From the IMG/VR virus record IMGVR_UViG_3300032103_000073: a DNA stretch of 64,000 nucleotides, one strand, 5' to 3'. Positions 17,855 to 63,351 of the stretch are shown in pieces. This DNA comes from a virus. Lineage: Duplodnaviria; Heunggongvirae; Uroviricota; Caudoviricetes. A program made the position numbers and the translations under genes. A model generated the notes under the pieces. It saw only the letters and a list, made by a program, of their open reading frames with translations, was not told the origin of the DNA and ran no database searches. The stretch's first letter is position 1. Every line of letters starts with the position of its first letter.

Positions 17855-18028
17855 ATGACAGTAGTAGGTCGTAAAAAAGTCAGTGATGTGTTAAACTGGC
17901 TCAATGAGAAAAAGTTTAAATATACTATCAATACCTTGTTATCAAATTCACTTCACGGCGTTTATTATTTAGAAATGAAAAACAGCGAAGAAGAACTTCT
18001 AACACGACTTACTTGGGGAATCACATGA
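17855..18028 (+). CDS. MF-x-LRWS-motif family small protein (57 aa, not in the track)
   Basis: C-terminus ..EELLTRLTWGIT. Confidence 0.45.
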   Translation: MTVVGRKKVSDVLNWLNEKKFKYTINTLLSNSLHGVYYLEMKNSEEELLTRLTWGIT

Positions 18029-36819: not shown

Positions 36820-37003
36820 AGTAAGTAAGAACCCGTTAGAAAGAAACAGCTATATTATTAGCAAAGGTCTCGATTATAAAACCGAAGACTGGTTAGAACT
36901 AAAAGAATGGCTCGAGCAACAAGACCACTTTTATCTCAACGGCGGAGTGCTGCATTTTAAAAGCGACGAAGTCAGTATGATGTTTGCATTAAAATACCTA
37001 TGA
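36812..37003 (+). CDS. MF-x-LRWS-motif family small protein
   Basis: C-terminus ..VSMMFALKYL. Confidence 0.55.
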   Translation: MIKVSKNPLERNSYIISKGLDYKTEDWLELKEWLEQQDHFYLNGGVLHFKSDEVSMMFALKYL

Positions 37004-37617
37004 TTAAACTACTTGGAAAACTCCCTTTAAATCCTGTTATCGCTCTTAGTGGCGGTGTGGATAGTATGGCTGTGGCTGATTTTGTTAGTCGTAGCAGAAG
37101 TGTGCAATGTGCATTTTTCCATCATGGCACCGGGGTTAGTGATATTGCAGCCCAAGTTGTCAAGGACTATTGCCTCAAACGAGGTTGGCATTTGTTTATG
37201 GGTCATATCGTCAATGAACGACCTGAGGACATTAGCCCCGAAGAACACTGGCGTAATGAACGTTATGCGTTCTTAGATAACCTACAGCGTGATGTGATTA
37301 CAGGTCATCATCTTGACGACAGTGTAGAAACTTACCTATGGAGCACCTTGCACGGCACTGCTAAGGTTATCCCGTATCAACGCAATCGTGTAATTCGCCC
37401 GTTCTCTTTGGCAAAGAAAGAGGACCTAGAAGCATGGGCTGAACGAAACAACGTGCCTTGGGTTGAAGATTACACTAACGGTGATACTAAGTATATGCGA
37501 AACTATGTGCGACACAATATTGTTCCGCATGCTCTAGCAGTGAATCCTGGCTTGCACAAAGTGGTAGCACGTAAAGTTGAAGAACAATATCACAAAACAC
37601 TTGACACAAATTATTAA
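37000..37617 (+). CDS. tilS: tRNA(Ile)-lysidine synthetase-like PP-loop domain (TilS N-terminal catalytic domain)
   Basis: SGGVDS PP-loop; TGHHLDDSVETYLW and VIRPF...WVEDYTNGD..Y.RN motifs match the TilS core; 205 aa, catalytic domain only. Confidence 0.75.
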   Translation: MIKLLGKLPLNPVIALSGGVDSMAVADFVSRSRSVQCAFFHHGTGVSDIAAQVVKDYCLKRGWHLFMGHIVNERPEDISPEEHWRNERYAFLDNLQRDVITGHHLDDSVETYLWSTLHGTAKVIPYQRNRVIRPFSLAKKEDLEAWAERNNVPWVEDYTNGDTKYMRNYVRHNIVPHALAVNPGLHKVVARKVEEQYHKTLDTNY

Positions 37618-37650: not shown

Positions 37651-37728
37651 TGCTCCTATAGCACAATTGGTTAGTGCAATCGACTCATAATCGATAGGTT
37701 ACTGGTTCGAGTCCAGTTGGGAGCACCA
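37651..37728 (+). tRNA. tRNA-Ile2 (anticodon CAT, lysidine type) or Met
   Basis: cloverleaf; anticodon arm ..TCGACTCATAATCGAT.. as in E. coli tRNA-Ile2; encoded CCA; adjacent to tilS. Confidence 0.8.
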
Positions 37729-37810: not shown

Positions 37811-37850
37811 ACAAAAACAAAAACCCGCATAATGCGGGTTTTTGTTTTAT
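37811..37850. terminator. bidirectional rho-independent terminator
   Basis: A-run, cccgcataatgcggg stem, T-run. Confidence 0.8.
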
Positions 37851-38725
37851 CCATTATAGTTAAACGTCGAACGAACTAAAACACGCTCTCTTAATATATT
37901 AGGGTCGTCTTGATCTCGTTTGTGTATGGTCAAGATTTGATCCATCAGAATAATATCACCGGGCTCCCATGGGTGCGAATAGATAAACTTATCCTGAAGA
38001 CAGTGTTCTTTTAAATCTTCTAACAAGCATGGATCTTGCGGAAATGAGCACTTGTTATGAAAGTGAAAATATAATCCTTTTTTTCCTCTAAAGCTATCGT
38101 TGATCAACGGCATTTGATAAGGAACTTTATTTTTTGCCATAGCGTTATATTGATCTGCTGGTAATCCTTCTGCCCATATTTCGGGAGCATACTCAAAATT
38201 GCCCACTATGCCCTGGCAACGCTCTTTGAGGTCTGCAGGCATAGCTTCGTAAGCTAGTGTAGTATCCATGAAACTAGTGCTGGTCCCCTTAATGCCTTCG
38301 CTTACACCCTGCAAGGCAACACCGTTAGCCCTACCCGGTCCGTTGTAGTTGCTATGCCAGTCTAGTGTGCCGGTTCCGAATATACCACTGCGTTTGCCAT
38401 TTTTTATTTGTCCGGTTACTCGCTGCACAGGATACAGATCATCTATGCCTTCATAATTAAATGGATCGATAACTTCTTTGGCTTTGTTAAACAAGACATT
38501 ACCGTGAATGTCCCACGTGCATTGGTCCCAGTTAGCAACATTGCCTTGACCCATGCGATAAATTAGTTTCATATAAGGAACGGTTAGCCTGGGTTGATTT
38601 TTAAATACAACAACTAAATCGCGCAGCAGTGACTCTTTAATATCTACATAATCTTGTTCTGTTAGTTCTCGTATGTCGCAGTCGGAAATTTCTACGGCAC
38701 AATTGTTTAATGGTGTAATCTTCAT
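37847..38725 (-). CDS. TauD/TfdA-like Fe(II)/alpha-ketoglutarate dioxygenase (putative)
   Basis: WEPGDIILMDQILTIHKR C-terminal motif; 292 aa. Confidence 0.45.
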   Translation of the reverse strand: MKITPLNNCAVEISDCDIRELTEQDYVDIKESLLRDLVVVFKNQPRLTVPYMKLIYRMGQGNVANWDQCTWDIHGNVLFNKAKEVIDPFNYEGIDDLYPVQRVTGQIKNGKRSGIFGTGTLDWHSNYNGPGRANGVALQGVSEGIKGTSTSFMDTTLAYEAMPADLKERCQGIVGNFEYAPEIWAEGLPADQYNAMAKNKVPYQMPLINDSFRGKKGLYFHFHNKCSFPQDPCLLEDLKEHCLQDKFIYSHPWEPGDIILMDQILTIHKRDQDDPNILRERVLVRSTFNYNG

Positions 38726-38779
38726 ATGTTTATTTAATCAATAGAGCCTGTAAGCTAGAAAAGTCTAATAAATATTTGC

Positions 38780-39568
38780 ATGTCATATTCTAAAATCATA
38801 ACAAACAAACTAGCTTCTAATACAGAATTTTTACCTTACATTCAATTGGCAGCAACTGCACTGGTTGCAGCATTTGTTATATTTTATCCCCAGTCTCATG
38901 CAGGATGGCTAACAGCAGTTCTTATGTATGCGGCGATTGGCTGTTTTGGCATTAGCATTGGTTATCATAGACTACTAACGCATAAGAGTTTTAAGACTAC
39001 AAAATTTTGGGAATATTTTTGTGCCTTGTGGGGAACATTGGCATTTACTGGCAGTGCGATAGGTTGGGTAGGCATGCACAGAGACCATCACAAATACAGC
39101 GACAAGCCGGGTGACCCGCATAGTCCAGTAGTTCGCAGCTGGCGCATGCTAGTAGCAGCTTACGATTATGCCCCGGATAAATGGAAGATTCGCCATTTAA
39201 TCTTTGATAAATTTCACGTCTTTATTCACACTTGGTATTTTGGTTTATTGTTAGCATGGACAGCTTTTTGGTTTTCACTTGGTGGAATAGCATTAGCTAT
39301 GTATGTGGTTATTATCCCTGCGGTAATTAGCGTTTGGGTTAGCACTACTAGCAACTATATGAACCACAAATGGGGATATAGGAATTTTGAAACAACAGAT
39401 AACAGCCGCAACCTTTGGTTTAATGCAGTCTTTACATTTGGAGAAGGATGGCATAACAACCATCACGCTCGCCCGGGTAATTATGACTTTGGATCTGGTA
39501 CTAGTGGCAAGTGGTGGGAATTTGATCCCGGTGCTAGAATTATAGAATTGATACGATCTTGCAAATAA
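38780..39568 (+). CDS. membrane fatty-acid desaturase/hydroxylase family protein
   Basis: three His boxes HRLLTH, HRDHH and HNNHH; four TM helices. Confidence 0.7.
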   Translation: MSYSKIITNKLASNTEFLPYIQLAATALVAAFVIFYPQSHAGWLTAVLMYAAIGCFGISIGYHRLLTHKSFKTTKFWEYFCALWGTLAFTGSAIGWVGMHRDHHKYSDKPGDPHSPVVRSWRMLVAAYDYAPDKWKIRHLIFDKFHVFIHTWYFGLLLAWTAFWFSLGGIALAMYVVIIPAVISVWVSTTSNYMNHKWGYRNFETTDNSRNLWFNAVFTFGEGWHNNHHARPGNYDFGSGTSGKWWEFDPGARIIELIRSCK

Positions 39569-45225: not shown

Positions 45226-45855
45226 ATGAACTATATAATTTACAAGACTACAAATCTGCTAAACGGTATGTACTACATTGGTTCTCATCAAACCAATGAC
45301 TTAAATGACGGATACTTAGGTTCGGGTAAACATTTAAAAAGAGCCATTACTAAGTACGGCAGAGAAAATTTTAAATTTGAAATTCTTTACTTTCTTCCCT
45401 CAAAAGAGGAAATGTTTAAAGTAGAACGAGAAATCGTAAATGAATCTTTTGTGCAAGATCCGCTAACGTATAATTTAAAAATCGGTGGTAGCGGAGGGAA
45501 TCCTGGTATTATCGGAGCTTTTTCTGGAAGAAGGCATACCGAAGAAACTAGAGAAAAAATGAGAGTTTCGAGGTCGAAACAAGCGCCCATGTCAGAAACA
45601 AGTAGACAAAAACTTTCAGAAAATAACTGGTCTAAAAGAGATCCCGGCGCGCATAGAGAACACATGCGTAAGATAGCATCTATGCCACGGTCGGAAGAAC
45701 ATAACAAAAAAGTCGCCGAAGCAAACATAGGCAAAACAATAGTTAATAATGGTATTATTGCTAAAAGAATAGATAAGAAAGATTTGAGCTACTATGAAGA
45801 TAGTGTTGGAAAAGAGGCGCAATGCCTCGTAAGAAATAATATGCCCTTAAGATAA
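45226..45855 (+). CDS. GIY-YIG homing endonuclease (Seg-like)
   Basis: IIYKTTNLLNGMYYIGSH...KRAITKYG GIY-YIG module plus basic C-terminal DNA-binding region. Confidence 0.75.
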   Translation: MNYIIYKTTNLLNGMYYIGSHQTNDLNDGYLGSGKHLKRAITKYGRENFKFEILYFLPSKEEMFKVEREIVNESFVQDPLTYNLKIGGSGGNPGIIGAFSGRRHTEETREKMRVSRSKQAPMSETSRQKLSENNWSKRDPGAHREHMRKIASMPRSEEHNKKVAEANIGKTIVNNGIIAKRIDKKDLSYYEDSVGKEAQCLVRNNMPLR

Positions 45856-45915
45856 CGGCAGTCGTCAGGTCTCCAAAACCTTGAAGTCGCGGTTCGAATC
45901 CGTGAGGGTATGCCA
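45841..45915 (+). tRNA. tRNA-Trp (CCA)
   Basis: acceptor ATGCCCT/AGGGTAT; loop CTCCAAA; overlaps the last 15 nt of the endonuclease ORF. Confidence 0.65.
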
Positions 45916-48139: not shown

Positions 48140-48346
48140 CAAGTTAAGAAATTAACTGTTTTGATAGATGTTGTTGGGAGCGATCCCCCACAACAGAGAT
48201 GTAAGGTCCTCAACTGCGAGGCGTTAGCAACATTTATCATCTTGTTCTTTAAAAATTTGCAGTGTTGTTTAGGCTGATTGACGGCAATCGAAAAGCAGTC
48301 TGAGTCTTGTCCCCGGCGCACCGCTTTGCCGAGCGTACCGCAGGGA
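48140..48346 (+). other. structured leader A (candidate small RNA), homologous to leader B
   Basis: shared 5' box AGAT(A/G)(C/T)AAGTTAAG(A/C)AATTAACT and a GGGA(A)GCGATC hairpin. Confidence 0.4.
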
Positions 48347-48420
48347 GTCTCTATAGTGTAAGGGTAGCACGCCAGCTTGTAAGAGTTGGAGGATTGGGTT
48401 CGAATCCCAATAGAGTTTAA
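48347..48420 (+). tRNA. tRNA-Gln-scaffold paralog with an 8-nt anticodon loop (TTGTAAGA); no CCA
   Basis: D-arm and T-arm nearly identical to the tRNA-Gln at 45012; stem CCAGC/GTTGG encloses 8 nt. Confidence 0.4.
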
Positions 48421-54303: not shown

Positions 54304-54380
54304 AACTAATAATGCCCCGGTGGTGGAATTGGTAGACACGCTACGTTGAGGTCGTAGCATTTGCAGGTTCGAGTCCTGTC
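54304..54380 (+). tRNA. class-I tRNA with Leu anticodon GAG (G37)
   Basis: 5' half resembles E. coli tRNA-Leu (TGGTGGAATTGGTAGACAC) but the variable loop is only 4-5 nt. Confidence 0.55.
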
Positions 54381-54432
54381 CAGGGTACCATTGAATGTAA
54401 AGTTAAATACATATGTAAACAAAGGAGTAATC

Positions 54433-54993
54433 ATGTCTGTACTAGCACTCGACATTTCTGGAATCCCACGTCAGTGGATTTCCTTTGATGACGCTATCAC
54501 TTACCACGCCAAAGATGCAGTAGCATGGAGCATGGGAGAAGTAGTAGCGAAGTATCGCGGTGGCTTACAAAATGATGGATCTGAAAGTTACTTGGAAACC
54601 ACTAGCATTATTGCTATTAAGGGTCACGGATTTAATCCCCATAAGCACGGAACTGTGGCGTTGAGCAACCGAACATTGTTTGGTCGTGACCGCAACACTT
54701 GTGCCTACTGCGGGGGTCATTTCCCTAACTATCACCTGTTGAGTAGGGATCATATTGTTCCTAAATATCACGGCGGTGAAAATACTTGGATGAACTGTGT
54801 TACGGCTTGCAAGGAATGTAACAGCAAAAAAGGACATAAGACTTTGAAAGAAGCTCGTATGGAATTGCTCTACGTGCCATATGCACCTAACCACTTTGAA
54901 AATATGATTTTGCAAAACCGAAGCATCATGGCGGATCAGATGGAATATTTGATCCAAGGTGTGCCTAAGCACAGCAGGATCCTGCTTTCATAG
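54433..54993 (+). CDS. HNH endonuclease
   Basis: CAYCGGHF...DHIVPKYHGGENTWMNCVTACKECNSKK; SD GGAG before ATG 54433. Confidence 0.75.
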   Translation: MSVLALDISGIPRQWISFDDAITYHAKDAVAWSMGEVVAKYRGGLQNDGSESYLETTSIIAIKGHGFNPHKHGTVALSNRTLFGRDRNTCAYCGGHFPNYHLLSRDHIVPKYHGGENTWMNCVTACKECNSKKGHKTLKEARMELLYVPYAPNHFENMILQNRSIMADQMEYLIQGVPKHSRILLS

Positions 54994-55280: not shown

Positions 55281-55952
55281 ATGAAACGTATCATCGAAAT
55301 CAGAGCCGCCGAGGGCGGAGAAGATAGTAAACTATTTGTTAAAGATTTGGCACAAGCATATATTAAGTTCGCACAAAGCAAGGGCTGAGCTACCCGCCTG
55401 ATAGGTGAGTATCAAGGCGAACTTCATATTGAAGTCCAGGGTACTGATTTATCCGGCTTGTATAACGAAAGCGGAGGACATCGCATACAGCGAATTCCGC
55501 CCACAGAACGAAAAGGCCGAGTGCATACCAGCACAGTCACAGTTGCCATCGTAGATCCCGCAGAAGTTGCTTTAGAATTAAAGGACTCTGATTTACGAAT
55601 AGAATGGTACAGTGGTACAGGCGCCGGCGGGCAGCACAGGAACAAGCACCAAAACTCGTGCCGCATTACACACATTCCTTCTGGCATAGTTGCAACAGCA
55701 CAATGTCGCTCAAGGGAAAACAGTTTAGCGGAAGCACGAAGCGCGATTGTTGCCCGTGTAAACGAACAAGTTAAAAAACAGTTTACAGATGGGCTAGCAC
55801 AAAATAGGCGTGAGCAAGTGGGCTCTGGCATGCGAGGAGACAAAATTCGCACTTACAGATTCCAAGACGACAGGGTGCAGGACCATGTAACAAGCAAAAC
55901 AGCCAGTACTAAAAAAGTATTACAAGGCAACTTTGACTTGCTGTGGGCTTAA
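55281..55952 (+). CDS. RF1-like peptide chain release factor (domains 2-4) interrupted by an in-frame TGA at 55386-55388
   Basis: strong SD; GGQ motif SGTGAGGQHRNK; PxT-type tripeptide (PPT); ESGGHRIQRIP; a single reading frame across the TGA. Confidence 0.65.
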
Positions 55953-57161: not shown

Positions 57162-57725
57162 ATGCCCTGGATACAAAATGTCAGCATGAGCGATGTCAAG
57201 CGCGGCTTGCATTTCGAGGCCGGCGAAAATAGCATGCTGATTCAGATTGTTGACCCAGCATATGAGTTTCCTGCACCGTTGAAGCAGTTTAAAGAAGTTC
57301 ATCAGTTTGAATTTCTCGATGTAGAAGCAACTGACTTGGAGTTTGCAGAGTTTGCCTGCACACAAGAGCAAGCAGACCGCTTGGTGGAACTGCTAACTCA
57401 TGCTATGGACAAACGCATGAACGTTCTCGTGCATTGCCATGCAGGTGTTTGCCGCAGTGGTGCAGTCTGCGAAGTAGGTGTTATGATGGGATTTAGCGAC
57501 ACAGAAGTGTTTCGCAGTCCTAACCTGCTGGTCAAGCACTTAATGATGAAGCGACTTGGATGGACCTATGATGCCGATGAAAAGCATAGCACAAACGGCT
57601 ATACTACTCCCAGCGGCATTATTGTTCCCAAGCAAGAATTAGATTGGACAAACGATAACGAAAAGGTGTTTACACTGGCTGATGCCCGGCGCAAGTATCG
57701 TTTTAACACCGGAGAAGATGTATGA
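57162..57725 (+). CDS. protein tyrosine/dual-specificity phosphatase
   Basis: CX5R P-loop VHCHAGVCRSG. Confidence 0.65.
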   Translation: MPWIQNVSMSDVKRGLHFEAGENSMLIQIVDPAYEFPAPLKQFKEVHQFEFLDVEATDLEFAEFACTQEQADRLVELLTHAMDKRMNVLVHCHAGVCRSGAVCEVGVMMGFSDTEVFRSPNLLVKHLMMKRLGWTYDADEKHSTNGYTTPSGIIVPKQELDWTNDNEKVFTLADARRKYRFNTGEDV

Positions 57726-58289: not shown

Positions 58290-58520
58290 TTGTTTAAGGT
58301 AATTTACAATAACGTCGAGCAAGAGTTCGACACATTAGATTTGGCAATGAGGCATGCAAAACTGCTCAATGCCTTTGTCACAATTAAAAGCGACACGTTT
58401 GAAATTGTAGGCAAGTTTGGAGTAGATAGTGTCCGAGACGGACGATGTCCCGACGGCGTTGTCTACGACTGGAATAAAGCAAGTCGTATCGGTCGTGTTA
58501 AGAAAGAACGGGTAGTATAA
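58290..58520 (+). CDS. hypothetical protein
   Basis: ORF. Confidence 0.4.
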   Translation: MFKVIYNNVEQEFDTLDLAMRHAKLLNAFVTIKSDTFEIVGKFGVDSVRDGRCPDGVVYDWNKASRIGRVKKERVV

Positions 58521-58536
58521 AGTACTACCTTTTTAT

Positions 58537-58565
58537 TTGACACTAATTGGTTTTGGACATATAAT
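58537..58565 (+). promoter_or_regulatory. conserved early promoter
   Basis: before ATG 58594. Confidence 0.7.
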
Positions 58566-58593: not shown

Positions 58594-58806
58594 ATGACTA
58601 GATTCTTCTGGCAAGATGCCAAAGGTCTCAAAGCCGATGTTGAACGTCATCGTGCTAAAGAGGCTGAACTGGATGCTCGTATCGCAGAACTCGAAGGCAA
58701 AGATGATCCTATGAGCATCGCAGCCATGCGAGTGTATCGCAGATTTCGTGCGCAACTGCAACAAAGCAAGGCTGATGTTGTAAGCAAGATTGGAAAAAGA
58801 AAATGA
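58594..58806 (+). CDS. hypothetical protein
   Basis: ORF. Confidence 0.45.
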   Translation: MTRFFWQDAKGLKADVERHRAKEAELDARIAELEGKDDPMSIAAMRVYRRFRAQLQQSKADVVSKIGKRK

Positions 58807-59345
58807 AAAAATGGATCACCTCGGATTTACATTTCGGGCATGCCAATATTATGAAGTTCTGCCCGGTGACCCGTGTGGGATTCACCGATGTGACAGACAT
58901 GCGAGAACAGATGATCGCAGAATGGAATGCAAGTGTTGCACCAGAAGATGAAACATTTATCTTGGGCGACTTTGCATTTTTGCCTGCGAAAGATGCGGTT
59001 GCTATTCTGCGTAGACTAAATGGCACAAAGATTTTGATTGAAGGCAATCACGACCGCAAACTGTTGAACGACCCGAGCTTCCGCGGGGAGTTTAAAGAAG
59101 TACATCAGTACTTGCGTTATAATCATGAAGGTACTACTGTGATTATGTTGCACTACCCTATCTGGGAGTGGGATCAAATGCATCGCGGTAGTGTGCATTT
59201 TTATGGGCATGTGCATGGCGCAAAGACTGGCATGGAAAAGTATCGTGCCCGTGATGTAGCGTTTGACGCTACGGGACGAGTCGTTAGTAACTTGGATGCT
59301 ATGATTGCAGATGCATTAAAGGGCGAAATTCGCAGTCATCACTAA
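58803..59345 (+). CDS. metallophosphoesterase (Ser/Thr phosphatase-like)
   Basis: SDLHFGH, GDFAF, GNHDRK and GHVHG motifs. Confidence 0.65.
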   Translation: MKKWITSDLHFGHANIMKFCPVTRVGFTDVTDMREQMIAEWNASVAPEDETFILGDFAFLPAKDAVAILRRLNGTKILIEGNHDRKLLNDPSFRGEFKEVHQYLRYNHEGTTVIMLHYPIWEWDQMHRGSVHFYGHVHGAKTGMEKYRARDVAFDATGRVVSNLDAMIADALKGEIRSHH

Positions 59346-59362
59346 ACAATTTCGGAGCATAC

Positions 59363-59770
59363 ATGGTGCTTTCTAAAAACAGCTTAAACAAACTAAAGTC
59401 CAGTATGATGTCATCGGATTCGAGTGCAGATTATGCTGGACCTGTTTATAACTATTTGGTCTACGGTTTCCATCCGGGTAGCTTTTTTCGAGCACTGTTA
59501 GCTAACGATTTTATGAGTGCAATTGCTCACAGTCATCCTGCTAACAGCGTATATGAGCTTAAAAAGCTAGTAGGATGGCTATGTCAAACTTTCCCACCCG
59601 ATGTTGTTTATGGTAATTATGAAGTAGTAGAAGGTTGGTGCAAGAAAACTGACGAAGAACGGTATCAAGTATTACTAGATGCTAAACTTGTATACGATAA
59701 AGAAACTGAAATGATGCTAATCCTACAGGGAAAACTGCAAGCAGATGTACGGGAAATCGAATTTGTTTAA
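59363..59770 (+). CDS. hypothetical protein
   Basis: ORF. Confidence 0.45.
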   Translation: MVLSKNSLNKLKSSMMSSDSSADYAGPVYNYLVYGFHPGSFFRALLANDFMSAIAHSHPANSVYELKKLVGWLCQTFPPDVVYGNYEVVEGWCKKTDEERYQVLLDAKLVYDKETEMMLILQGKLQADVREIEFV

Positions 59771-59799
59771 TTGACACAAATTCGGTTTGGCGTTATAAT
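59771..59799 (+). promoter_or_regulatory. conserved early promoter
   Basis: before ATG 59830. Confidence 0.7.
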
Positions 59800-59829
59800 A
59801 CTTGTATAGTAAGAAACAAGGAGTCAGTC

Positions 59830-60366
59830 ATGGAAGATTTTACCATGGATCAAAGCGGTATGGATATCGTGCGTAAGGCACAAGTCTATGCCATGGCTGC
59901 TCATGCGGCTGTTGGACAAAAGCGTAAGTACACCAACGAACCCTACATTGTTCACCCTGCAGAAGTTGCCAGCATCGTTGCCAGTGTTCCCGGTAGTACT
60001 CCTGACATGGTTGCGGCCGCGTGGCTTCATGACGTTATCGAGGATACTGGTTGCACATTTACTGATGTGCATATGGCTTTTGGTATCGACATTGCTACTC
60101 TCGTTGGCTGGTTGACTGATGTGAGCCGGCCCGAAGATGGCAATCGTGCCCACCGCAAGGCTATGGACCGTGAGCATACTGCACAAGCACCTGCTGAGGC
60201 ACAGACCATCAAGTTGGCTGACCTTATCAGCAACAGCCGTAGCATCATGCAACATGACCCGGAGTTTGCAAAGACTTACCTCGAAGAAAAGCGTCAGCTT
60301 CTTGCAGTTATGACCAAGGGTGACCGCAGTCTTCATGCAGAAGCTAGCAAGTTTGTTGGAGTTTGA
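59830..60366 (+). CDS. HD-domain phosphohydrolase
   Basis: H..H...HPAEV and WLHDVIEDT (H-HD-D metal ligands). Confidence 0.6.
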   Translation: MEDFTMDQSGMDIVRKAQVYAMAAHAAVGQKRKYTNEPYIVHPAEVASIVASVPGSTPDMVAAAWLHDVIEDTGCTFTDVHMAFGIDIATLVGWLTDVSRPEDGNRAHRKAMDREHTAQAPAEAQTIKLADLISNSRSIMQHDPEFAKTYLEEKRQLLAVMTKGDRSLHAEASKFVGV

Positions 60367-60367
60367 A

Positions 60368-60634
60368 ATGAACGAACAAATGCTGGAACTTTATAGACGG
60401 GCTCAAGTGCCGTATACTGCTATTGACCCGTCTAATAATATGCCTTATGAGACAACTACTTTTAGTGCGGAAAAGTTCGCCGAGTTGATTGTTCGGGAAT
60501 GTTTGAACCAATTACAAGAATTAACGCCACTGAAAATTTCCAATGAAGAACACCAGAAATTAGTTGATGCTACACATATAGCGGCAGTGAGTATCGGTGT
60601 TGCTAAGATTAAACATCATTTCGGAGTTGAATAA
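60368..60634 (+). CDS. FAELIVREC-family small protein
   Basis: KFAELIVRECLNQ...HHFGVE. Confidence 0.55.
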   Translation: MNEQMLELYRRAQVPYTAIDPSNNMPYETTTFSAEKFAELIVRECLNQLQELTPLKISNEEHQKLVDATHIAAVSIGVAKIKHHFGVE

Positions 60635-61179
60635 TGAAGTTAGTTTTAATTCGAGGATTGCCCGGTTCGGGTAAAAGCACAATGGCACAAACTTTGTGCT
60701 ATAGCCCAGACTGGGTACATCAAGAAGCAGATCAGTTTTGGATGCATAACGGAGAGTACCGTTTTGATGCCGCTCGGTTGCGCGAAGCTCACGAATGGTG
60801 TCAATCTAAGACTCGCGAAGCATTGGCCGCAGGCTGTGATGTTGTGGTCTCTAACACCTTTACTACCATCAAAGAACTGCGTCCTTACTTTGACATTGCA
60901 AAAGAATTTAACATTGTGCCCAATGTATTTGTAGCACAAAACGACTTTGGTAGTGTTCACAATGTTCCTGCTGAGACTTTGGCTAAGATGCGTGAGCGTT
61001 TTCAGTTCAATATTGACAGCCTGTTTGCAGAGTACCGGCCTGCAAAGGTTATCCCTATTGCTGTAGACGGGGAAGATGGATGGCACACTTGTCCCTACAA
61101 GATGGAAATCCACGACGACTTCGAGTCGCTGTGTCAATGTTCAGATGAACAAGAGCACGAATGTGCTATGGATGTTTAA
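60634..61179 (+). CDS. P-loop polynucleotide-kinase-like protein
   Basis: Walker A GLPGSGKST; PNK/zeta-toxin-type kinase fold size. Confidence 0.55.
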   Translation: MKLVLIRGLPGSGKSTMAQTLCYSPDWVHQEADQFWMHNGEYRFDAARLREAHEWCQSKTREALAAGCDVVVSNTFTTIKELRPYFDIAKEFNIVPNVFVAQNDFGSVHNVPAETLAKMRERFQFNIDSLFAEYRPAKVIPIAVDGEDGWHTCPYKMEIHDDFESLCQCSDEQEHECAMDV

Positions 61180-61180
61180 T

Positions 61181-61429
61181 ATGGGCTGGGTAGTTTATGC
61201 TAAAGGCGATGGAGAAATTCTTCGCTATTACAAGTCGGAGAAGGCAGCACAGAGCCAAGTCACAGGACACAATAAAAAACTGTTTCTGGACATCCTGCAT
61301 AACGGCCATAGTCGTTATGAAAGTCGCAAGGAGTGGGCATACTGCAACTGGCACGACTTTGAAGAAGTTTATAAAAAGTATTATGAACATAACAAGCACC
61401 ATATGCTGGTTATGAGCTCATTTCGCTAG
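61181..61429 (+). CDS. hypothetical protein
   Basis: probable ATG 61181 (track from 61076). Confidence 0.4.
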   Translation: MGWVVYAKGDGEILRYYKSEKAAQSQVTGHNKKLFLDILHNGHSRYESRKEWAYCNWHDFEEVYKKYYEHNKHHMLVMSSFR

Positions 61430-61439
61430 AGTCGAAAAA

Positions 61440-61468
61440 TAGACATAAATCGGTTTGAGTGTTATAAT
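61440..61468 (+). promoter_or_regulatory. promoter (TAGACA-N17-TATAAT)
   Basis: before ATG 61497. Confidence 0.55.
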
Positions 61469-61496
61469 ACTTTTTTGCATAAAATAGAGTTATATA

Positions 61497-62396
61497 ATGT
61501 TTAAAGACGAATTGAAAAAGTATGTAGAGACTTCGGGCTTAGTGAACATGAAGCCCGCTGGGGACGGAATCTTTGTTCTCAAGTATCGCAAAAAAGTTTT
61601 TTATGACAATCTTTGGGACGAGTATCTGGAACACTGCCGCGGGTCAGTGATTGATAAAGACTTTAATCTAATCTCTTATCCGTTTCAGAAAATCTACAAC
61701 TATGGTATCGAAAAGGAAGCACCTGTGCTAGCGGACGACACTGAAGTTTTAGCATATCGCAAAGTCAATGGCTTTATGGTAGCCATGACTTGGTACAATG
61801 GCGACATCTTAGTTTCAACTACAGGTTCTACAGACAGTCCTTATGTTACTATGGCAAAAGAAATGATGTTGACTCATCAATCTTGGGCAGACTGGCAGTT
61901 GGCACTTAACCGTTCAGACATGGATGGCATGACCGTTATGTTTGAGTGTGTTCATCATAACGACCCGCACATCATTCCAGAAAAGCCAGGTATGTATGTA
62001 TTAGGCTATCGTAACAACCAGTTTGGTTCTAAAGTGGGGCACGATCCTTGCGTATTGCAAGACTTGGCGATTGCATTTAACTGCCACAAGCCAGAAAGCG
62101 TAACAGCGTCCATGACGGCAATAAAGAACTTGGCCAAGGAATGCAAGCACGAAGGGTTTGTATTCTATACCGCTGATGGTGTAAGTGCTAAGATCAAGTC
62201 GCCATACTACTTGACTTCAAAGTGGGTTGCTCGCAATCCACGTACAGATAAGTTAGTAGACTTGAACAAGGACATCAAGCACAATATCGACGAGGAGTAT
62301 TATGGGCTCATCGACGCAATCCGATTAAACATCGCGGCTTACACCGCGATGAATGAACAGGAAAGATTAGAGTGGGTTCGTAAGTTCCTCGGATAA
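61497..62396 (+). CDS. ATP-dependent RNA ligase-like nucleotidyltransferase
   Basis: motif I KVNGF; EGFVFY (motif IV); K-x-K (motif V). Confidence 0.6.
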   Translation: MFKDELKKYVETSGLVNMKPAGDGIFVLKYRKKVFYDNLWDEYLEHCRGSVIDKDFNLISYPFQKIYNYGIEKEAPVLADDTEVLAYRKVNGFMVAMTWYNGDILVSTTGSTDSPYVTMAKEMMLTHQSWADWQLALNRSDMDGMTVMFECVHHNDPHIIPEKPGMYVLGYRNNQFGSKVGHDPCVLQDLAIAFNCHKPESVTASMTAIKNLAKECKHEGFVFYTADGVSAKIKSPYYLTSKWVARNPRTDKLVDLNKDIKHNIDEEYYGLIDAIRLNIAAYTAMNEQERLEWVRKFLG

Positions 62397-63083
62397 CTTA
62401 CAGTTATCACCGTGCCATCGTTTAAGATTGCTCGCACTTACTTCTTTAGAACAGTGAGGGCATCTTAACCTTGGACGGTTTGCGTGATAGGGATTTTCTT
62501 TAATCTTGTTGATATGTTCTGTTGATTTGGGCTTGCTCTGCTTTGCCTTTATTTCTGCCGCATACTCAACACCAAATCGTTCCTCGTAAGTTTTTCCAGC
62601 ATAGTGTTCTCGCATAGTTTGCTTGAACTCATCTGTTTTGGGCTGCGAATGTTTGCCCTTGCCGTTGGCACTCATTTTCTTTCTTGTGCTCTCTTTGTGA
62701 GTTTTGCTATACATAGGATTAAGTTCGCCTCTACGAGATTTACCATACCAAGGATTTTTCTTTCCGCGAATGTCTGCGTGAAAAGTCCCAGCACCGGTTG
62801 CTTGGTTTATGTATAACGGATTCTTGTGTACCTGGTGCTTTTTATGAAAGTATTCTTCTTGTTCTGCCGCTTCTTTTTTAGTAGCATGAACAGTAAGTAT
62901 TTTGGTTTCGAAAAGGTGTGGATTTTGTTCAAGTTCCTCTAACCAAATCTGTTTGTAAAGTTTGCTGGAAACGGAACCGTGATATCCGTTTTGAACATTT
63001 TTTACATTGGAACGCCCAATGTAAAACATAGGCATTTTGGTCCCTTTGTAAATGGTTAGATAGGTACAGTATTCCATTGACAT
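62367..63083 (-). CDS. GIY-YIG homing endonuclease (Seg-like)
   Basis: YLTIYKGTKMPMFYIGRS GIY-YIG; basic C-terminal region; only large minus-strand gene in this block. Confidence 0.7.
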   Translation of the reverse strand: MSMEYCTYLTIYKGTKMPMFYIGRSNVKNVQNGYHGSVSSKLYKQIWLEELEQNPHLFETKILTVHATKKEAAEQEEYFHKKHQVHKNPLYINQATGAGTFHADIRGKKNPWYGKSRRGELNPMYSKTHKESTRKKMSANGKGKHSQPKTDEFKQTMREHYAGKTYEERFGVEYAAEIKAKQSKPKSTEHINKIKENPYHANRPRLRCPHCSKEVSASNLKRWHGDNCKLSEELTNPL

Positions 63084-63138: not shown

Positions 63139-63351
63139 ATGAATAAACTAATCAAAGAACTTAAACACCAAGCAACAGACTATGTTGATAGTATTGATGA
63201 TGGGCTTGGTATAGAACATTATAGAGAATTTGTGGATCTAAAGTTCGCTGAGTTGATTGTAGGGGAATGTGCTAAAGTTGCTTTGTGGGAGCAAGGCAAG
63301 GGATATGATGTTGGTGAAATTATCCTAAAACATTTTGGAGTAAAAGAATGA
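63139..63351 (+). CDS. FAELIVREC-family small protein
   Basis: KFAELIVGECAKV...KHFGVKE. Confidence 0.55.
   Translation: MNKLIKELKHQATDYVDSIDDGLGIEHYREFVDLKFAELIVGECAKVALWEQGKGYDVGEIILKHFGVKE

What the first reader, a model, noticed from the sequence alone, without database searches (positions are those of the whole stretch)
58803..62396. Candidate RNA end-healing and sealing module: metallophosphoesterase, HD phosphohydrolase, PNK-like kinase and RNA ligase
A calcineurin-type phosphoesterase (58803), an HD-domain hydrolase (59830), a P-loop PNK-like kinase (60634, GLPGSGKST) and a nucleotidyltransferase with ligase motifs I (KVNGF), IV (EGFVFY) and V (61497) are clustered.

Together they supply the 3'-phosphatase or cyclic phosphodiesterase, 5'-kinase and ligase activities needed to repair tRNAs cleaved by host anticodon nucleases, as T4 Pnkp and Rnl1 do. 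This fits the very large phage tRNA complement.
Basis: partly seen in the sequence, partly recalled or inferred. Interest (0 to 1): 0.6.

Follow-up and report, generated by a model that had tools for sequence, protein, structure and literature searches.

The report
Split phage RNA break-repair gene module
An uncultured giant phage carries separate genes for an RNA ligase, an RNA 5'-kinase and a metal-dependent phosphoesterase, a kit conserved in many phages and predicted to mend host-cut RNAs such as tRNAs; a neighbouring fourth enzyme is an alarmone-type hydrolase, not a classic repair enzyme.

Summary
All four ORFs exist at the stated coordinates with the stated motifs.

The ligase (61497-62396) is an Rnl1-family enzyme. 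A profile hits T4 Rnl1 at E=8e-17, nearly all residues I recall as essential in T4 Rnl1 align to invariant residues, and the AF2 model's best fold matches are T4 Rnl1 and fungal Trl1. It lacks T4's large C-terminal tRNA-specificity domain.

The kinase (60634-61179) falls in the polynucleotide-kinase clade by fold and profile. It has no fused phosphatase.

The phosphoesterase (58803-59345) has all five binuclear-metal motifs. It belongs to an uncharacterised Aquifex aq_1665-like family.

Ligase, kinase and phosphoesterase lie within 4 kb, in shuffled orders, in eight cultured phage lineages. In 470 of 659 matching phage records the ligase is directly followed by the kinase.

The HD protein (59830-60366) is a SpoT/Mesh1-type small alarmone hydrolase with a different distribution. 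It is probably an accessory, not the cyclic phosphodiesterase.

The RNA heal-and-seal reading is well supported computationally for the trio. It has already been predicted or annotated for homologues, and it is untested biochemically. I rate it a new member of a known kind, of moderate interest.

A conserved in-frame TGA in a nearby RF1-like gene is the most surprising thing in the neighbourhood.

The parts
58537..58565 (+). Promoter-like site P1 (TTGACA-17-TATAAT, 12 of 12), just after a terminator-like hairpin at 58510-58530. It would drive the small ORF, the phosphoesterase and the 135-aa ORF.
58594..58806 (+). Small ORF of 70 aa, unknown function. Its stop overlaps the phosphoesterase start codon (ATGA).
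   Evidence: Homologues lie upstream of the ligase in some related loci (labelled 'o89').
58803..59345 (+). Binuclear metallophosphoesterase of 180 aa, aq_1665-like family. Predicted healer of the 2',3'-cyclic-phosphate (3') end.
   Evidence: PHROG 547 at 5.5e-48. All five motifs invariant. Nearest solved structure is Aquifex aq_1665, 1XM7, E=1.4e-22. Within 3 kb of the ligase in 75 of 81 related loci and in eight other phage lineages.
59363..59770 (+). ORF of 135 aa, unknown function. Poorly conserved filler gene.
   Evidence: No Pfam, PHROG or NCBIfam hit. Weak homologues in only two related loci.
59771..59799 (+). Promoter-like site P2 (12 of 12), 31 nt upstream of the HD gene.
59830..60366 (+). 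HD-domain hydrolase of 178 aa, RelA/SpoT-homologue type (small alarmone hydrolase). Probable accessory: a 3'-pyrophosphate or 3'-phosphate hydrolase acting on alarmones and/or tRNA 3' ends.
   Evidence: HD_4 at 3.5e-15. TIGR00691 at 1.6e-20. phmmer hits to Rel hydrolase domains, Mesh1 and bacterial small alarmone hydrolases, with the His, HD, ED and D...N residues aligned.
60368..60634 (+). ORF of 88 aa, unknown function. Weak paralogue of 63139-63351.
60634..61179 (+). Stand-alone P-loop polynucleotide 5'-kinase-like protein of 181 aa. Kinase core is residues 1-133, followed by a clade-specific Cys/His-rich C-terminal extension.
   Evidence: AAA_33 at 5.4e-12. PHROG 2071 and PHROG 505. Profile hits to PSTK, Pnkp1 and T4 Pnk. 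The AF2 model's top ~35 PDB matches are polynucleotide kinases and PSTK. Invariant Walker A, D33 and R122.
61181..61429 (+). ORF of 82 aa, unknown function.
   Evidence: Called as a gene on an identical contig. No family hit.
61440..61468 (+). Promoter-like site P3 (TAGACA-17-TATAAT, 11 of 12), 29 nt upstream of the ligase gene.
61497..62396 (+). Rnl1-family ATP-dependent RNA ligase of 299 aa, short form. Predicted adenylylated lysine is K89.
   Evidence: PHROG 562 at 3.9e-50. TIGR02308 at 3.3e-9. Profile against T4 Rnl1 (2C5U) at E=8.1e-17. AF2 model with pLDDT 91, best fold matches T4 Rnl1 and Trl1 ligase domains.
57162..57725 (+). Cysteine phosphatase of the dual-specificity/PTP type (HCHAGVCRSG), 187 aa.
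   Evidence: DSPc at 1.8e-7 and PTP-SAK at 1.9e-5, both just under the Pfam cut-offs. Within 3 kb of the ligase in 64 of 81 related loci. Not found near the module in other phage lineages.

Best explanation
This is a split, multi-gene RNA break-repair (heal-and-seal) pathway of a giant phage. It is expressed as three short early-type transcription units from strong sigma-70-like promoters.

Proposed sequence of events:
1. A host ribonuclease, for example an anticodon nuclease, cuts a tRNA or another RNA. This leaves a 2',3'-cyclic phosphate and a 5'-OH.
2. The metallophosphoesterase opens or removes the cyclic phosphate at the 3' end.
3. The stand-alone polynucleotide-kinase-like protein phosphorylates the 5'-OH.
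4. The Rnl1-family ligase, through a Lys89-AMP intermediate, seals the 3'-OH and 5'-phosphate ends.

The SpoT/Mesh1-type HD hydrolase is an accessory, not a core component. It most likely hydrolyses 3'-pyrophosphorylated nucleotides ((p)ppGpp or (p)ppApp) and/or 3'-(pyro)phosphorylated tRNA ends. That would protect translation from a second kind of host attack.

Shown here: family membership, conservation of catalytic residues, and conserved gene linkage. Inferred: every enzymatic step, the order of steps, and tRNA as the substrate.
For: Ligase:
- The profile matches T4 Rnl1 residues 48-255 at E=8e-17. T4 residues R54, K75, K99, G102, E159, E227, G228, K240 and K242 align to R48, K65, K89, G92, E150, E219, G220, K232 and K234. 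Their being the mutationally essential T4 residues is my recollection.
- All nine of these residues are invariant in 56 diverse homologues.
- The AF2 model (pLDDT 91) is closest to T4 Rnl1 and then to Trl1 ligase domains, ahead of the archaeal (Pyrococcus/Palaeococcus), Naegleria and T4 Rnl2 ligases.

Kinase:
- The best fold matches are Trl1-type, CthPnkp, mammalian PNKP, T4 Pnk and Pnkp1 kinases.
- Profile hits to PSTK, Pnkp1 and T4 Pnk.
- Walker A and Asp33 are invariant; Asp33 aligns with the DD of Pnkp1.

Phosphoesterase:
- All metal-ligand motifs are invariant, including the GNH histidine. The equivalent histidine matters for cyclic phosphodiesterase activity in CthPnkp (PMC2190708).

Linkage:
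- Ligase, kinase and phosphoesterase lie within 4 kb in ACP17, RSP15, rV5, Pakpunavirus K5, Thalassavirus Gary, Saclayvirus TAC1, Otagovirus phiPsa267 and Vibrio phage SRILMA. Gene order and orientation differ among them.
- Genus-level distributions of ligase (661 records) and kinase (628 records) are nearly identical.
- 470 of 659 records have the ligase directly followed by the kinase, and 134 more have both at separate places.
- In 81 loci of this phage's own clade the phosphoesterase is within 3 kb of the ligase in 75, often with overlapping stop and start codons.
- In that clade the kinase slot is filled either by this kinase type (3 loci plus the window) or by a second AAA_33 kinase that looks more T4-Pnk-like by eye (51 loci), never by both. 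This non-orthologous replacement argues that a kinase is needed there.

Context:
- 32 tRNA genes lie upstream.
- A release-factor-like gene is nearby in the window. Relatives also carry a peptidyl-tRNA hydrolase gene nearby.

Precedent:
- T4 Pnkp/Rnl1, CthPnkp (kinase, metallophosphoesterase and ligase in one protein) and Pnkp1-Rnl-Hen1 (papers listed).
- Jumbo-phage surveys already pair Rnl1/Rnl2 ligases with kinases and, in a few cases, calcineurin-like or HD phosphatases (PMC7824862).
Against: - No biochemical data exist for this ligase subfamily, this kinase subfamily or the aq_1665-like phosphoesterase family.
- The phosphoesterase is not in the lambda-phosphatase/CthPnkp branch. Motif II is GDFAF, without the Arg that CthPnkp needs for monoesterase activity. 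It may not produce a clean 3'-OH on its own.
- The phosphoesterase has a weak resemblance to the DNA endonuclease PdeM (TIGR04123, E=0.001).
- The phosphoesterase family is about 2.4 times more widespread than the ligase. It occurs in Staphylococcus, Listeria, Enterococcus and Bacillus phages, genera that are not among the ten listed for the ligase.
- The ligase lacks T4 Rnl1's C-terminal tRNA-specificity domain.
- The kinase lacks the lid arginines in the T4 position.
- 13 of 42 clade loci with at least 3 kb of flank on both sides show no kinase nearby.
- The HD protein's family and distribution point to alarmone metabolism.
Confidence: 0.7

Rival explanations
1. One reading: all four enzymes form one obligatory pathway, with the HD protein supplying the 2',3'-cyclic phosphodiesterase or 3'-phosphatase step.
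For: - The HD gene sits between or beside the phosphoesterase and the ligase in 48 of 81 clade loci. It is also next to the phosphoesterase in ACP17, Pakpunavirus K5 and Otagovirus phiPsa267.
- A phage polynucleotide kinase with an HD-domain 3'-phosphatase is known: RM378 (PMC1997131).
- The Kurata et al. preprint notes that small alarmone hydrolases may act as RNA 3'-phosphatases 'similar to T4 Pnk'.
- The phosphoesterase lacks the monoesterase arginine, which leaves room for a second phosphatase.
Against: - The HD protein is a RelA/SpoT-homologue hydrolase by every test. That family acts on 3'-pyrophosphates, not on cyclic phosphates.
- Five of nine lineages carrying the trio have no HD homologue nearby.
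- Among the 251 phage records with an HD homologue are phiKZ-like, Erwinia jumbo and Rhizobium phages, groups that are not prominent among the ligase hits.
Confidence: 0.2
2. The neighbours are functionally independent counter-defence or metabolic genes that merely share an accessory early-gene island. The phosphoesterase would degrade signalling nucleotides or act as a nuclease or protein phosphatase. The kinase would be a nucleotide kinase. The HD protein would hydrolyse alarmones. The ligase would work alone.
For: - Each gene or gene pair has its own strong promoter. Unrelated small ORFs are interspersed.
- The phosphoesterase family is broader than the ligase family.
- The phosphoesterase's nearest solved relative has no known function.
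- Jumbo-phage surveys assign calcineurin-like and HD enzymes to counter-nucleotide defence as well (PMC7824862).
Against: - Ligase and kinase co-occur almost one to one and are directly adjacent in 470 of 659 records.
- The trio stays together through repeated rearrangement in eight lineages.
- The kinase type is swapped while its position is kept.
- The kinase fold matches polynucleotide kinases first. Sugar and nucleotide kinases appear only from about rank 36.
Confidence: 0.1
3. The module heals and seals DNA nicks (3'-phosphate/5'-OH ends) instead of RNA.
For: - Polynucleotide kinases of this clade, such as T4 Pnk and mammalian PNKP, act on DNA too (fold matches).
- The phosphoesterase weakly resembles the ligase-associated DNA endonuclease PdeM.
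- Dedicated DNA ligase genes lie within about 10 kb in relatives.
Against: - The ligase is in the Rnl1 family (T4 Rnl1 and fungal Trl1 are the best fold matches). As far as I know, the characterised members are RNA ligases.
- These phages encode a separate ATP-dependent DNA ligase, so a second DNA sealing enzyme is not needed.
- The surrounding genes concern tRNA and translation.
Confidence: 0.05

Closest known systems
Phage T4 Pnkp + Rnl1 tRNA restriction-repair pathway
   Same: The predicted chemistry is the same: 3' healing, 5' phosphorylation and ATP-dependent sealing. The ligase is in the same family, with nearly all the recalled essential catalytic residues conserved. The kinase is in the same P-loop clade. 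Both are phage counter-measures next to phage tRNA genes.
   Different: The kinase is a stand-alone protein with no HAD (DxDxT) phosphatase domain. 3' healing is assigned to a separate binuclear metallophosphoesterase. The ligase is 299 aa against 374 aa and lacks T4's C-terminal domain. It scores 36 bits against the 242-bit TIGR02308 cut-off.
Bacterial Pnkp/Hen1 and Pnkp1-Rnl-Hen1 RNA repair systems (Clostridium thermocellum, Capnocytophaga)
   Same: The combination is the same: polynucleotide kinase, calcineurin-type metallophosphoesterase and ATP-dependent ligase. In Pnkp1-Rnl-Hen1 the ligase is also a separate polypeptide (PMC4411300 and PMC2190708). The Pnkp1 and CthPnkp kinases are among the best profile and fold matches.
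   Different: Here all three activities are separate genes. The phosphoesterase is not of the lambda-phosphatase/CthPnkp branch: it has no GDxxDRG arginine and no profile match to those chains. The ligase is Rnl1-type. No Hen1 methyltransferase was seen in the module.
Homologous annotated gene sets in cultured phages: rV5 gp076-078, Pakpunavirus (K5 gp025/026/030/032; phage Adele 025/026/032), Thalassavirus Gary gp176-178, Otagovirus phiPsa267 034-038, ACP17, RSP15
   Same: These are true homologues of ligase (31-47% identity), kinase (36-42%) and phosphoesterase (32-44%) in the same tight neighbourhood. In phage Adele the kinase and ligase were already proposed to restore cleaved tRNA, and the HD protein was called a small alarmone hydrolase (PMC12846349).
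   Different: This copy is from an uncultured phage on a 267-kb contig, with no close DNA relative in the phage collection. Gene order differs. The kinase carries an extra Cys/His-rich tail. Most of its own clade uses a different kinase type. The phosphoesterase was not discussed as part of tRNA repair in the passages of the Adele paper that I read.
Small alarmone hydrolases (Mesh1, bacterial SAHs, the antitoxin ATfaRel)
   Same: The HD protein matches Rel hydrolase domains, Mesh1 and bacterial small alarmone hydrolases at E values from 1e-15 to 1e-8. The catalytic His, HD, ED and D...N residues align, and there is no synthetase domain. Some members restore tRNA whose CCA end was pyrophosphorylated by toxSAS toxins.
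   Different: It is phage-encoded and embedded in a ligase/kinase/phosphoesterase cluster. Its substrate is unknown.
Phage RM378 polynucleotide kinase with an HD-domain 3'-phosphatase
   Same: It is a precedent for an HD-superfamily enzyme acting as the 3'-phosphatase partner of a phage polynucleotide kinase (PMC1997131).
   Different: In RM378 the HD domain is fused to the kinase. Whether it belongs to the SpoT-type HD subfamily was not tested here.

Membership tests
Rnl1-family ATP-dependent RNA ligase (T4 RnlA type) | Nucleotidyltransferase motif I KxxG with the adenylylated lysine | tested here: met
   K89-V-N-G92 aligns with T4 K99-E-D-G102. It is invariant in 56 homologues.
Rnl1-family ATP-dependent RNA ligase (T4 RnlA type) | Motifs III, IV and V (T4 E159; E227-G228; K240, K242) | tested here: met
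   E150, E219-G220, K232 and K234 align and are invariant.
Rnl1-family ATP-dependent RNA ligase (T4 RnlA type) | Rnl1-specific N-terminal essential residues (T4 R54, K75, F77) | tested here: met
   ECRG aligns with CRG (R48). PMEKFFN aligns with PFQKIYN (K65; Y67 in place of F77). R48 and K65 are invariant. The list of essential T4 residues is from my own knowledge of the mutational literature.
Rnl1-family ATP-dependent RNA ligase (T4 RnlA type) | Overall fold closest to Rnl1 members | tested here: met
   Foldseek against PDB: ranks 1-3 are T4 Rnl1 (E 6.5e-13 to 2.5e-12). Ranks 4-10 are fungal Trl1 ligase domains (TM 0.68-0.72). The archaeal (Pyrococcus/Palaeococcus), Naegleria and T4 Rnl2 ligases rank lower. 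The model has pLDDT 91.
Rnl1-family ATP-dependent RNA ligase (T4 RnlA type) | T4-type C-terminal domain (residues ~255-374) that confers tRNA specificity | tested here: not met
   Profile and HMM alignments stop at T4 residue about 255. About 60 residues of helices remain. The role of the T4 domain is from my own knowledge.
Rnl1-family ATP-dependent RNA ligase (T4 RnlA type) | Curated HMM thresholds (TIGR02308 equivalog; Pfam PF09511) | tested here: not met
   TIGR02308 scores 36.3 bits against a cut-off of 242. There is no Pfam hit on this sequence, although relatives at about 80% identity carry precomputed PF09511. It is a family member, not a T4 RnlA equivalog.
Rnl1-family ATP-dependent RNA ligase (T4 RnlA type) | RNA sealing activity via ligase-AMP and AppRNA intermediates | not testable with these tools
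   Needs biochemistry.
Polynucleotide 5'-kinase clade of P-loop kinases (T4 Pnk, CthPnkp, PNKP, Trl1 kinase) | Walker A GxxGxGK(S/T) | tested here: met
   G8-L-P-G-S-G-K14-S-T. It is invariant.
Polynucleotide 5'-kinase clade of P-loop kinases (T4 Pnk, CthPnkp, PNKP, Trl1 kinase) | Catalytic aspartate after strand 2 (T4 Asp35) that activates the 5'-OH | tested here: met
   D33 is invariant in 32 clade sequences and 5 distant ones. It aligns with the DD of Pnkp1. The role of T4 Asp35 is from my own knowledge.
Polynucleotide 5'-kinase clade of P-loop kinases (T4 Pnk, CthPnkp, PNKP, Trl1 kinase) | Fold closest to polynucleotide kinases and not to nucleotide or sugar kinases | tested here: met
   The top ~35 Foldseek PDB matches are Trl1-type, CthPnkp, mammalian PNKP, T4 Pnk and Pnkp1 kinases plus PSTK. 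Gluconate and adenylate kinases appear only from about rank 36. The core has pLDDT above 90.
Polynucleotide 5'-kinase clade of P-loop kinases (T4 Pnk, CthPnkp, PNKP, Trl1 kinase) | Lid arginines contacting the NTP phosphates (T4 R122/R126, upstream of the VP motif) | tested here: inconclusive
   The window protein has QNDFGSVHNVP, with no basic residue there. Distant relatives have NRHG. An invariant R122 lies after the VP motif.
T4-type bifunctional Pnkp | Fused DxDxT (HAD) 3'-phosphatase domain | tested here: not met
   The protein is 181 aa. The C-terminal 48 residues are a Cys/His-rich tail with low model confidence and no HAD match.
Binuclear (calcineurin-like) metallophosphoesterase superfamily | Five metal-ligand motifs: DxH, GD, GNH(D/E), H, GHxH | tested here: met
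   D8/H10, G55-D56, G81-N82-H83, H117 and G135-H136-x-H138 are invariant in 7 homologues. PHROG 547 at 5.5e-48. 1XM7 at E=1.4e-22. Pfam Metallophos gave no hit on this sequence. A 59%-identical homologue is marked 'weak' for Metallophos.
Lambda-phosphatase / CthPnkp branch (RNA 2',3'-phosphoesterase with monoesterase activity) | Motif II GDxxDRG with the arginine essential for phosphomonoesterase activity (CthPnkp R237) | tested here: not met
   Motif II is LGDFAFL. The position four residues after the Asp is L, G, T or A across the family. The role of R237 is from PMC2190708. No CthPnkp or lambda-phosphatase chain was found by the profile at E<=1.
Lambda-phosphatase / CthPnkp branch (RNA 2',3'-phosphoesterase with monoesterase activity) | 2',3'-cyclic phosphodiesterase activity on RNA ends | not testable with these tools
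   H83 is present. It is the counterpart of CthPnkp H264, which is important for the cyclic diesterase reaction (PMC2190708). Activity itself needs an assay.
RelA/SpoT-homologue hydrolases (small alarmone hydrolases) | HD_4 / SpoT hydrolase domain above the curated threshold, with no synthetase domain | tested here: met
   HD_4 at 56.5 bits against 27.2. TIGR00691 at 1.6e-20, covering only the N-terminal hydrolase part of that model. The protein is 178 aa.
RelA/SpoT-homologue hydrolases (small alarmone hydrolases) | Catalytic residues: His (EPYxxHP), HD, ED, and D...N (KLADxxxN) | tested here: met
   EPYIVHP, LHDVIEDT and KLADLISN align with Rel from B. subtilis and S. equisimilis.
RelA/SpoT-homologue hydrolases (small alarmone hydrolases) | Hydrolysis of (p)ppGpp, (p)ppApp or tRNA 3'-pyrophosphate | not testable with these tools
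   Needs biochemistry.
Bacterial Pnkp-Hen1 system | Associated Hen1 2'-O-methyltransferase | tested here: not met
   None of the module's ORFs or the neighbouring ORFs submitted to Pfam, PHROG or NCBIfam hit a methyltransferase. The rest of the genome lies outside the window.

The most novel reading that the evidence does not exclude
3' end healing may be split between two or three enzymes.

- The aq_1665-like metallophosphoesterase lacks the monoesterase arginine but keeps the cyclic-diesterase histidine. It would only open the 2',3'-cyclic phosphate.
- The SpoT/Mesh1-type HD hydrolase, and/or the conserved upstream cysteine phosphatase, would then remove the remaining 3'- or 2'-phosphate.
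- The same HD enzyme would also strip pyrophosphate from tRNA CCA ends modified by toxSAS/CapRel-type defences.

The island would then be a dual tRNA repair kit, covering anticodon-loop breaks and blocked 3' ends. A RelA/SpoT-family hydrolase would be a bona fide RNA repair phosphatase.
Probability: 0.2. Interest if true: 0.6.

Novelty: new member of a known kind. Interest (0 to 1): 0.35.

Why it matters
tRNA-cleaving and tRNA-modifying defences are now recognised as widespread: PrrC, RloC, PARIS, retron/PtuAB, Cas13, Cas12a3 and CapRel. So far the known phage answers are phage-encoded tRNAs and the T4 Pnkp/Rnl1 pair.

This split ligase, kinase and phosphoesterase set is present in roughly 600 sequenced phages, including therapy-relevant Pakpunavirus and Vequintavirus phages. 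I found no report that it has been tested.

Showing that it repairs tRNA would have three consequences:
- It would define a second, much more common phage RNA-repair system.
- It would give a function to the uncharacterised aq_1665-like phosphoesterase family.
- It would show whether SpoT-type hydrolases take part in RNA repair.

For this window alone, the finding is a solid annotation and not a surprise.

Tried and rejected
- Megablast of the module against 50,697 phage records found no match. The phage has no close sequenced relative in that collection.
- Single-sequence phmmer of the ligase against PDB found nothing useful. T4 Rnl1 appeared only with a profile.
- Pfam gave no hit for the phosphoesterase or the ligase, even at E<=10.
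- I first took the ACP17 ORF upstream of its ligase to be the kinase. The alignment showed it is unrelated and looks hydrophobic. The real kinase lies downstream.
- A locus search with a diverse ligase alignment returned only this phage's own clade. Cross-lineage evidence therefore had to come from annotated phage records.
- In 13 clade loci with no kinase nearby, I looked for any P-loop ORF in six of them and found none.
- Burroughs & Aravind 2016, the main comparative paper on RNA repair systems, is not held. What I say about it rests on how PMC7824862 cites it and on my own memory.
- A ClpX-based attempt to place the phage taxonomically was uninformative.
- An Rfam scan of the tRNA-Trp region returned nothing at gathering threshold, although ARAGORN calls the tRNA.
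- I considered and rejected genome-wide TGA reassignment. 37 of 101 long ORFs in the window end in TGA.
- I rejected the T4 'tail-fibre attachment' role as an explanation for the ligase. To my knowledge it is a T4-specific side activity, and it does not explain the kinase and phosphoesterase linkage.

Full report
**What is there**

The window is an accessory, early-type region of an uncultured giant phage.
- The ligase protein is found, identical, on a 267-kb metagenomic contig. Relatives at 70-85% identity lie on contigs of 214-364 kb.
- Nothing in a collection of 50,697 phage records matches the DNA.
- Almost all genes are on the + strand.
- 32 tRNA genes occupy 37.6-54.4 kb.

The gene order is:
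- 58803-59345, metallophosphoesterase
- 59363-59770, unknown
- 59830-60366, HD hydrolase
- 60368-60634, unknown
- 60634-61179, P-loop kinase
- 61181-61429, unknown
- 61497-62396, ligase

A GIY-YIG/NUMOD3 homing endonuclease gene follows, convergent on the minus strand (62367-63083).

Three near-perfect sigma-70-type promoters cut the cluster into three short transcription units. They lie at 58537, 59771 and 61440 (TTGACA or TAGACA, 17 nt, TATAAT). They belong to a set of 32 such sites on the + strand of the window. The minus strand has 1, and about 1.3 per strand are expected by chance.

**Ligase**

- Pfam is silent on this sequence.
- PHROG 562 (the T4 gp63/Rnl1 family) matches at 3.9e-50. 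NCBIfam TIGR02308 (T4 RnlA family) matches at 3.3e-9 over residues 55-240.
- A nine-sequence profile hits T4 Rnl1 structures (2C5U, 5TT6, 9DO4) at E=8e-17, over T4 residues 48-255.
- In that alignment T4 R54, K75, K99, G102, E159, E227, G228, K240 and K242 pair with R48, K65, K89, G92, E150, E219, G220, K232 and K234. All nine are invariant in a 56-sequence alignment that reaches down to 31% identity. That these are the essential T4 residues is my recollection of the mutational literature.
- An AlphaFold model built on that alignment has mean pLDDT 91. Its best PDB matches are T4 Rnl1, then the fungal Trl1 ligase domains. The archaeal (Pyrococcus/Palaeococcus), Naegleria and T4 Rnl2 ligases follow.

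It is therefore an Rnl1-family ligase. It is not a T4 RnlA equivalog: it scores 36 bits against a 242-bit cut-off. The roughly 120-residue C-terminal domain of T4 Rnl1, which I recall as the tRNA-specificity determinant, is replaced by about 60 residues of short helices.

**Kinase**

- Pfam AAA_33 matches above threshold. PHROGs 2071 ('ATPase') and 505 ('polynucleotide kinase') also match.
- A five-sequence profile finds PSTK, Pnkp1, T4 Pnk and the CthPnkp kinase in PDB.
- The AlphaFold model has a core pLDDT above 90. Polynucleotide kinases are its best structural matches: Mucorales Trl1-type kinases, CthPnkp, mammalian PNKP, T4 Pnk and Pnkp1. PSTK ranks among them. Sugar and nucleotide kinases come only after them.
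- The Walker A motif and Asp33 are invariant. Asp33 is the counterpart of the catalytic aspartate.
- The lid arginines are not in the T4 position.
- The protein has no phosphatase domain.
- The window's copy, and four close relatives, carry a 48-residue C-terminal tail with a conserved H..CPY...LC.CS...H.C pattern. It may bind a metal, but it was modelled with low confidence.

**Phosphoesterase**

- All five binuclear metallophosphoesterase motifs are invariant across seven homologues.
- PHROG 547 matches at 5.5e-48.
- The only solved relative detectable by sequence is Aquifex aq_1665 (1XM7, E=1.4e-22), a structural-genomics protein of unknown function.
- It is not in the lambda-phosphatase/CthPnkp branch.
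- Motif II reads GDFAF and lacks the arginine that CthPnkp needs for phosphomonoesterase activity. The GNH histidine, which matters for the 2',3'-cyclic phosphodiesterase reaction, is present (PMC2190708).
- By that logic the enzyme may open cyclic phosphates without removing the resulting monoester. This is inference.

**HD protein**

- It is a RelA/SpoT-homologue hydrolase by every test: HD_4, TIGR00691 at 1.6e-20, and phmmer hits to the hydrolase domains of Rel, to Mesh1 and to bacterial small alarmone hydrolases, with the catalytic residues aligned.
- Known substrates of this family are (p)ppGpp and (p)ppApp. For some members they include tRNA whose CCA end has been pyrophosphorylated by toxSAS toxins.

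**Is the clustering meaningful?**

Yes, for three of the four genes.

Across cultured phages:
- tblastn finds the ligase in 661 phage records and the kinase in 628. The genus breakdowns are almost identical: Escherichia 199 and 198, Pseudomonas 175 and 173, Klebsiella 36 and 36, Acinetobacter 24 and 24, Campylobacter 23 and 23.
- A fused ligase+kinase query finds both genes colinear and adjacent in 470 of 659 matching records. Another 134 records have both at two separate places, as in rV5, where the genes are divergent.
- Ligase, kinase and phosphoesterase homologues lie within 4 kb in eight lineages from different genera or families, in six different orders and orientations. The lineages are ACP17, RSP15, rV5, Pakpunavirus K5, Thalassavirus Gary, Saclayvirus TAC1, Otagovirus phiPsa267 and Vibrio phage SRILMA.

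Within this phage's own clade (81 loci):
- The phosphoesterase is within 3 kb of the ligase in 75 loci, often with overlapping stop and start codons.
- The HD gene is there in 48 loci.
- A cysteine (dual-specificity type) phosphatase is there in 64 loci.
- The kinase found in the window occurs in only three other loci. Fifty-one loci carry instead a second AAA_33 kinase that looks more T4-Pnk-like by eye, inside the same cluster. No locus carries both.
- Replacement of one kinase type by another at a conserved position is good evidence that the cluster needs a kinase.

The weaker points of the linkage:
- The phosphoesterase family is broader, at 1,533 records, including Staphylococcus, Listeria, Enterococcus and Bacillus phages.
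- The HD family has a different spread. Its 251 records include phiKZ-like, Erwinia jumbo and Rhizobium phages, groups not prominent among the ligase hits.
- Where the HD gene does co-occur with the trio, it sits next to the phosphoesterase (window clade, ACP17, K5, phiPsa267).
- In three ligase-lacking phages I looked at, the HD homologue is a few kb from RtcB (RHEph10), near a Thg1-like gene (201phi2-1), or next to HicAB (phiKM1). This is anecdotal.

**Mechanism**

The best-supported reading is a split heal-and-seal RNA repair pathway:
1. The phosphoesterase processes the 2',3'-cyclic phosphate.
2. The kinase phosphorylates the 5'-OH.
3. The Rnl1-type ligase seals the break through Lys89-AMP.

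Every step is inferred from family membership, catalytic-residue conservation and gene linkage. None is shown.

tRNA as the target is suggested by the adjacent tRNA array and by translation-related neighbours: an RF1-like gene in the window, and a peptidyl-tRNA hydrolase and an eIF-1A-like gene in a relative. The ligase lacks the T4 tRNA-specificity domain, so the substrate is open.

The HD enzyme is best treated as an accessory that removes 3'-pyrophosphate from alarmones or tRNA ends. A less likely but more interesting possibility is that it, or the cysteine phosphatase, supplies a 3'-monoesterase step that the phosphoesterase cannot perform. Phage RM378 gives a precedent for an HD-domain 3'-phosphatase partnered with a polynucleotide kinase (PMC1997131).

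**Comparison with what is known**

- Functionally the module parallels T4 Pnkp/Rnl1 and, in domain content, the bacterial Pnkp/Hen1 and Pnkp1-Rnl-Hen1 systems (papers listed).
- It is not a member of either system: there is no HAD phosphatase, no lambda-type phosphoesterase, no Hen1, and no T4-type C-terminal ligase domain.
- The same gene set is already annotated in cultured phages. In the Pakpunavirus Adele the kinase and ligase homologues were proposed to restore cleaved tRNA, and the HD homologue was called a small alarmone hydrolase (PMC12846349).
- A survey of jumbo phages states that Rnl1/Rnl2 ligases go together with polynucleotide kinases and phosphoesterases, 'in a small number' of cases calcineurin-like or HD enzymes. 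It lists 'HD-alarmone' phosphodiesterases separately (PMC7824862).
- I found no biochemical study of this split system.

**Verdict**

It is right about the ligase, the kinase and a phosphoesterase forming an RNA repair set. It is probably wrong about the HD protein's role. It is unproven as to tRNA.
- This is a new member of a known, computationally predicted kind. Interest is moderate to low for this window alone, and higher as a pointer to an untested system present in about 600 sequenced phages.

**Side observation**

The RF1-like gene at 55281-55952 has an in-frame TGA at codon 36.
- The TGA is conserved in all 26 related loci that cover the gene.
- It aligns with a conserved tryptophan of bacterial RF1.
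- The phage's own tRNA-Trp(CCA) has a mismatched 27:43 pair, giving a four-base-pair anticodon stem. This feature was recently shown to promote UGA readthrough as Trp (PMC13092985).
- By my reading of the sequences printed, the mismatch recurs, with different nucleotides, in about 8 of 11 distinct tRNA-Trp sequences from related loci.
- TGA is otherwise a normal stop codon in the window.

This looks like programmed readthrough in a phage release-factor homologue. It deserves its own follow-up.

Noticed in passing
window 55281-55952 (+); TGA at 55386-55388; tRNA-Trp at 45841-45915: An RF1-like gene has a PPT motif and GGQ and lacks domain 1. It carries an in-frame TGA at codon 36 that is conserved in all 26 related loci covering the gene. 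The TGA aligns with a conserved Trp of bacterial RF1. The phage tRNA-Trp(CCA) has a C27.U43 mismatch, giving a 4-bp anticodon stem, a feature reported to promote UGA-to-Trp readthrough. By my reading, the mismatch recurs in about 8 of 11 distinct tRNA-Trp sequences from related loci. TGA is an ordinary stop elsewhere: 37 of 101 ORFs. This is possibly programmed readthrough controlling a phage release factor.
   Followed up: partly
whole window, + strand (e.g. 6220, 8499, 19298, 21112, 23089, 54272, 58537, 59771): There are 32 sites matching TTGACA-N16-18-TATAAT at 11 or more of 12 positions on the + strand. The minus strand has 1, and about 1.3 per strand are expected. Most share a conserved spacer (CAAATTGGTTTTGGYGY). 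This is a dense, stereotyped early-promoter set recognised by host RNA polymerase.
   Followed up: partly
L003:12200-12661 and 50 other related loci (e.g. L008:9538-10005): Most relatives of this phage carry a different AAA_33 kinase in the ligase cluster, one that looks more T4-Pnk-like by eye. It is never found together with the window's kinase type.
   Followed up: yes
window 57162-57725 (+): A cysteine phosphatase of the dual-specificity/PTP type (HCHAGVCRSG) gives Pfam DSPc and 'Swiss Army Knife' PTP hits just under threshold. It lies within 3 kb of the ligase in 64 of 81 related loci but is not found near the module in other phage lineages.
   Followed up: partly
window 61036-61179 (kinase residues ~135-181): The kinase has a clade-specific C-terminal tail with a conserved His/Cys pattern (H..CPY...LC.CS...H.C). 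Only four close relatives share it; most homologues end at about 133 aa. It may be a small metal-binding module, but it was modelled with low confidence.
   Followed up: partly
window 62367-63083 (-): A GIY-YIG/NUMOD3 homing-endonuclease gene lies convergent with the ligase gene, overlapping its 3' end by 30 nt. It is present on an identical contig and, at 53% identity, downstream of the ligase in one related locus. An HNH endonuclease (54361-54993) and another GIY-YIG gene (45226-45855) lie within or beside the tRNA array.
   Followed up: partly
window 48346-48419 (+): A tRNA-like gene has an 8-nt anticodon loop (TTGTAAGA; ARAGORN reports 'Tyr|Leu, gtaa') and a mismatch in the acceptor stem. 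It could be a decayed tRNA or a four-base decoder.
   Followed up: partly
window 37000-37617 (+), next to the tRNA with anticodon CAT at 37652-37728: A PP-loop ATPase gene (Pfam ATP_bind_3, 1.5e-28), which I recall as the family that includes TilS, lies immediately upstream of a CAT-anticodon tRNA. That tRNA may therefore be a lysidine-modified tRNA-Ile.
   Followed up: no
window 60368-60634 and 63139-63351 (+): Two small ORFs are weak paralogues: 38% identity over 45 aa, with a shared KFAELIV.EC motif. Their function is unknown.
   Followed up: partly
L094 (Rhizobium phage RHEph10), L093 (Pseudomonas phage 201phi2-1), L092 (Komagataeibacter phage phiKM1): In phages without the Rnl1-type ligase, homologues of the SpoT-type HD hydrolase lie 2.6 kb from an RtcB ligase gene, 2.4 kb from a Thg1-like gene, and directly after a HicAB toxin-antitoxin pair, respectively. 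This hints at a wider link with RNA-directed conflict. The sample is only three loci.
   Followed up: partly
window 403-1641, 18013-18783, 27511-28362, 37847-39568: Other accessory genes are present: a ClpX-like ATPase, a D-Ala-D-Ala carboxypeptidase, a second and larger metallophosphoesterase, a TauD-family dioxygenase and a fatty-acid desaturase.
   Followed up: no
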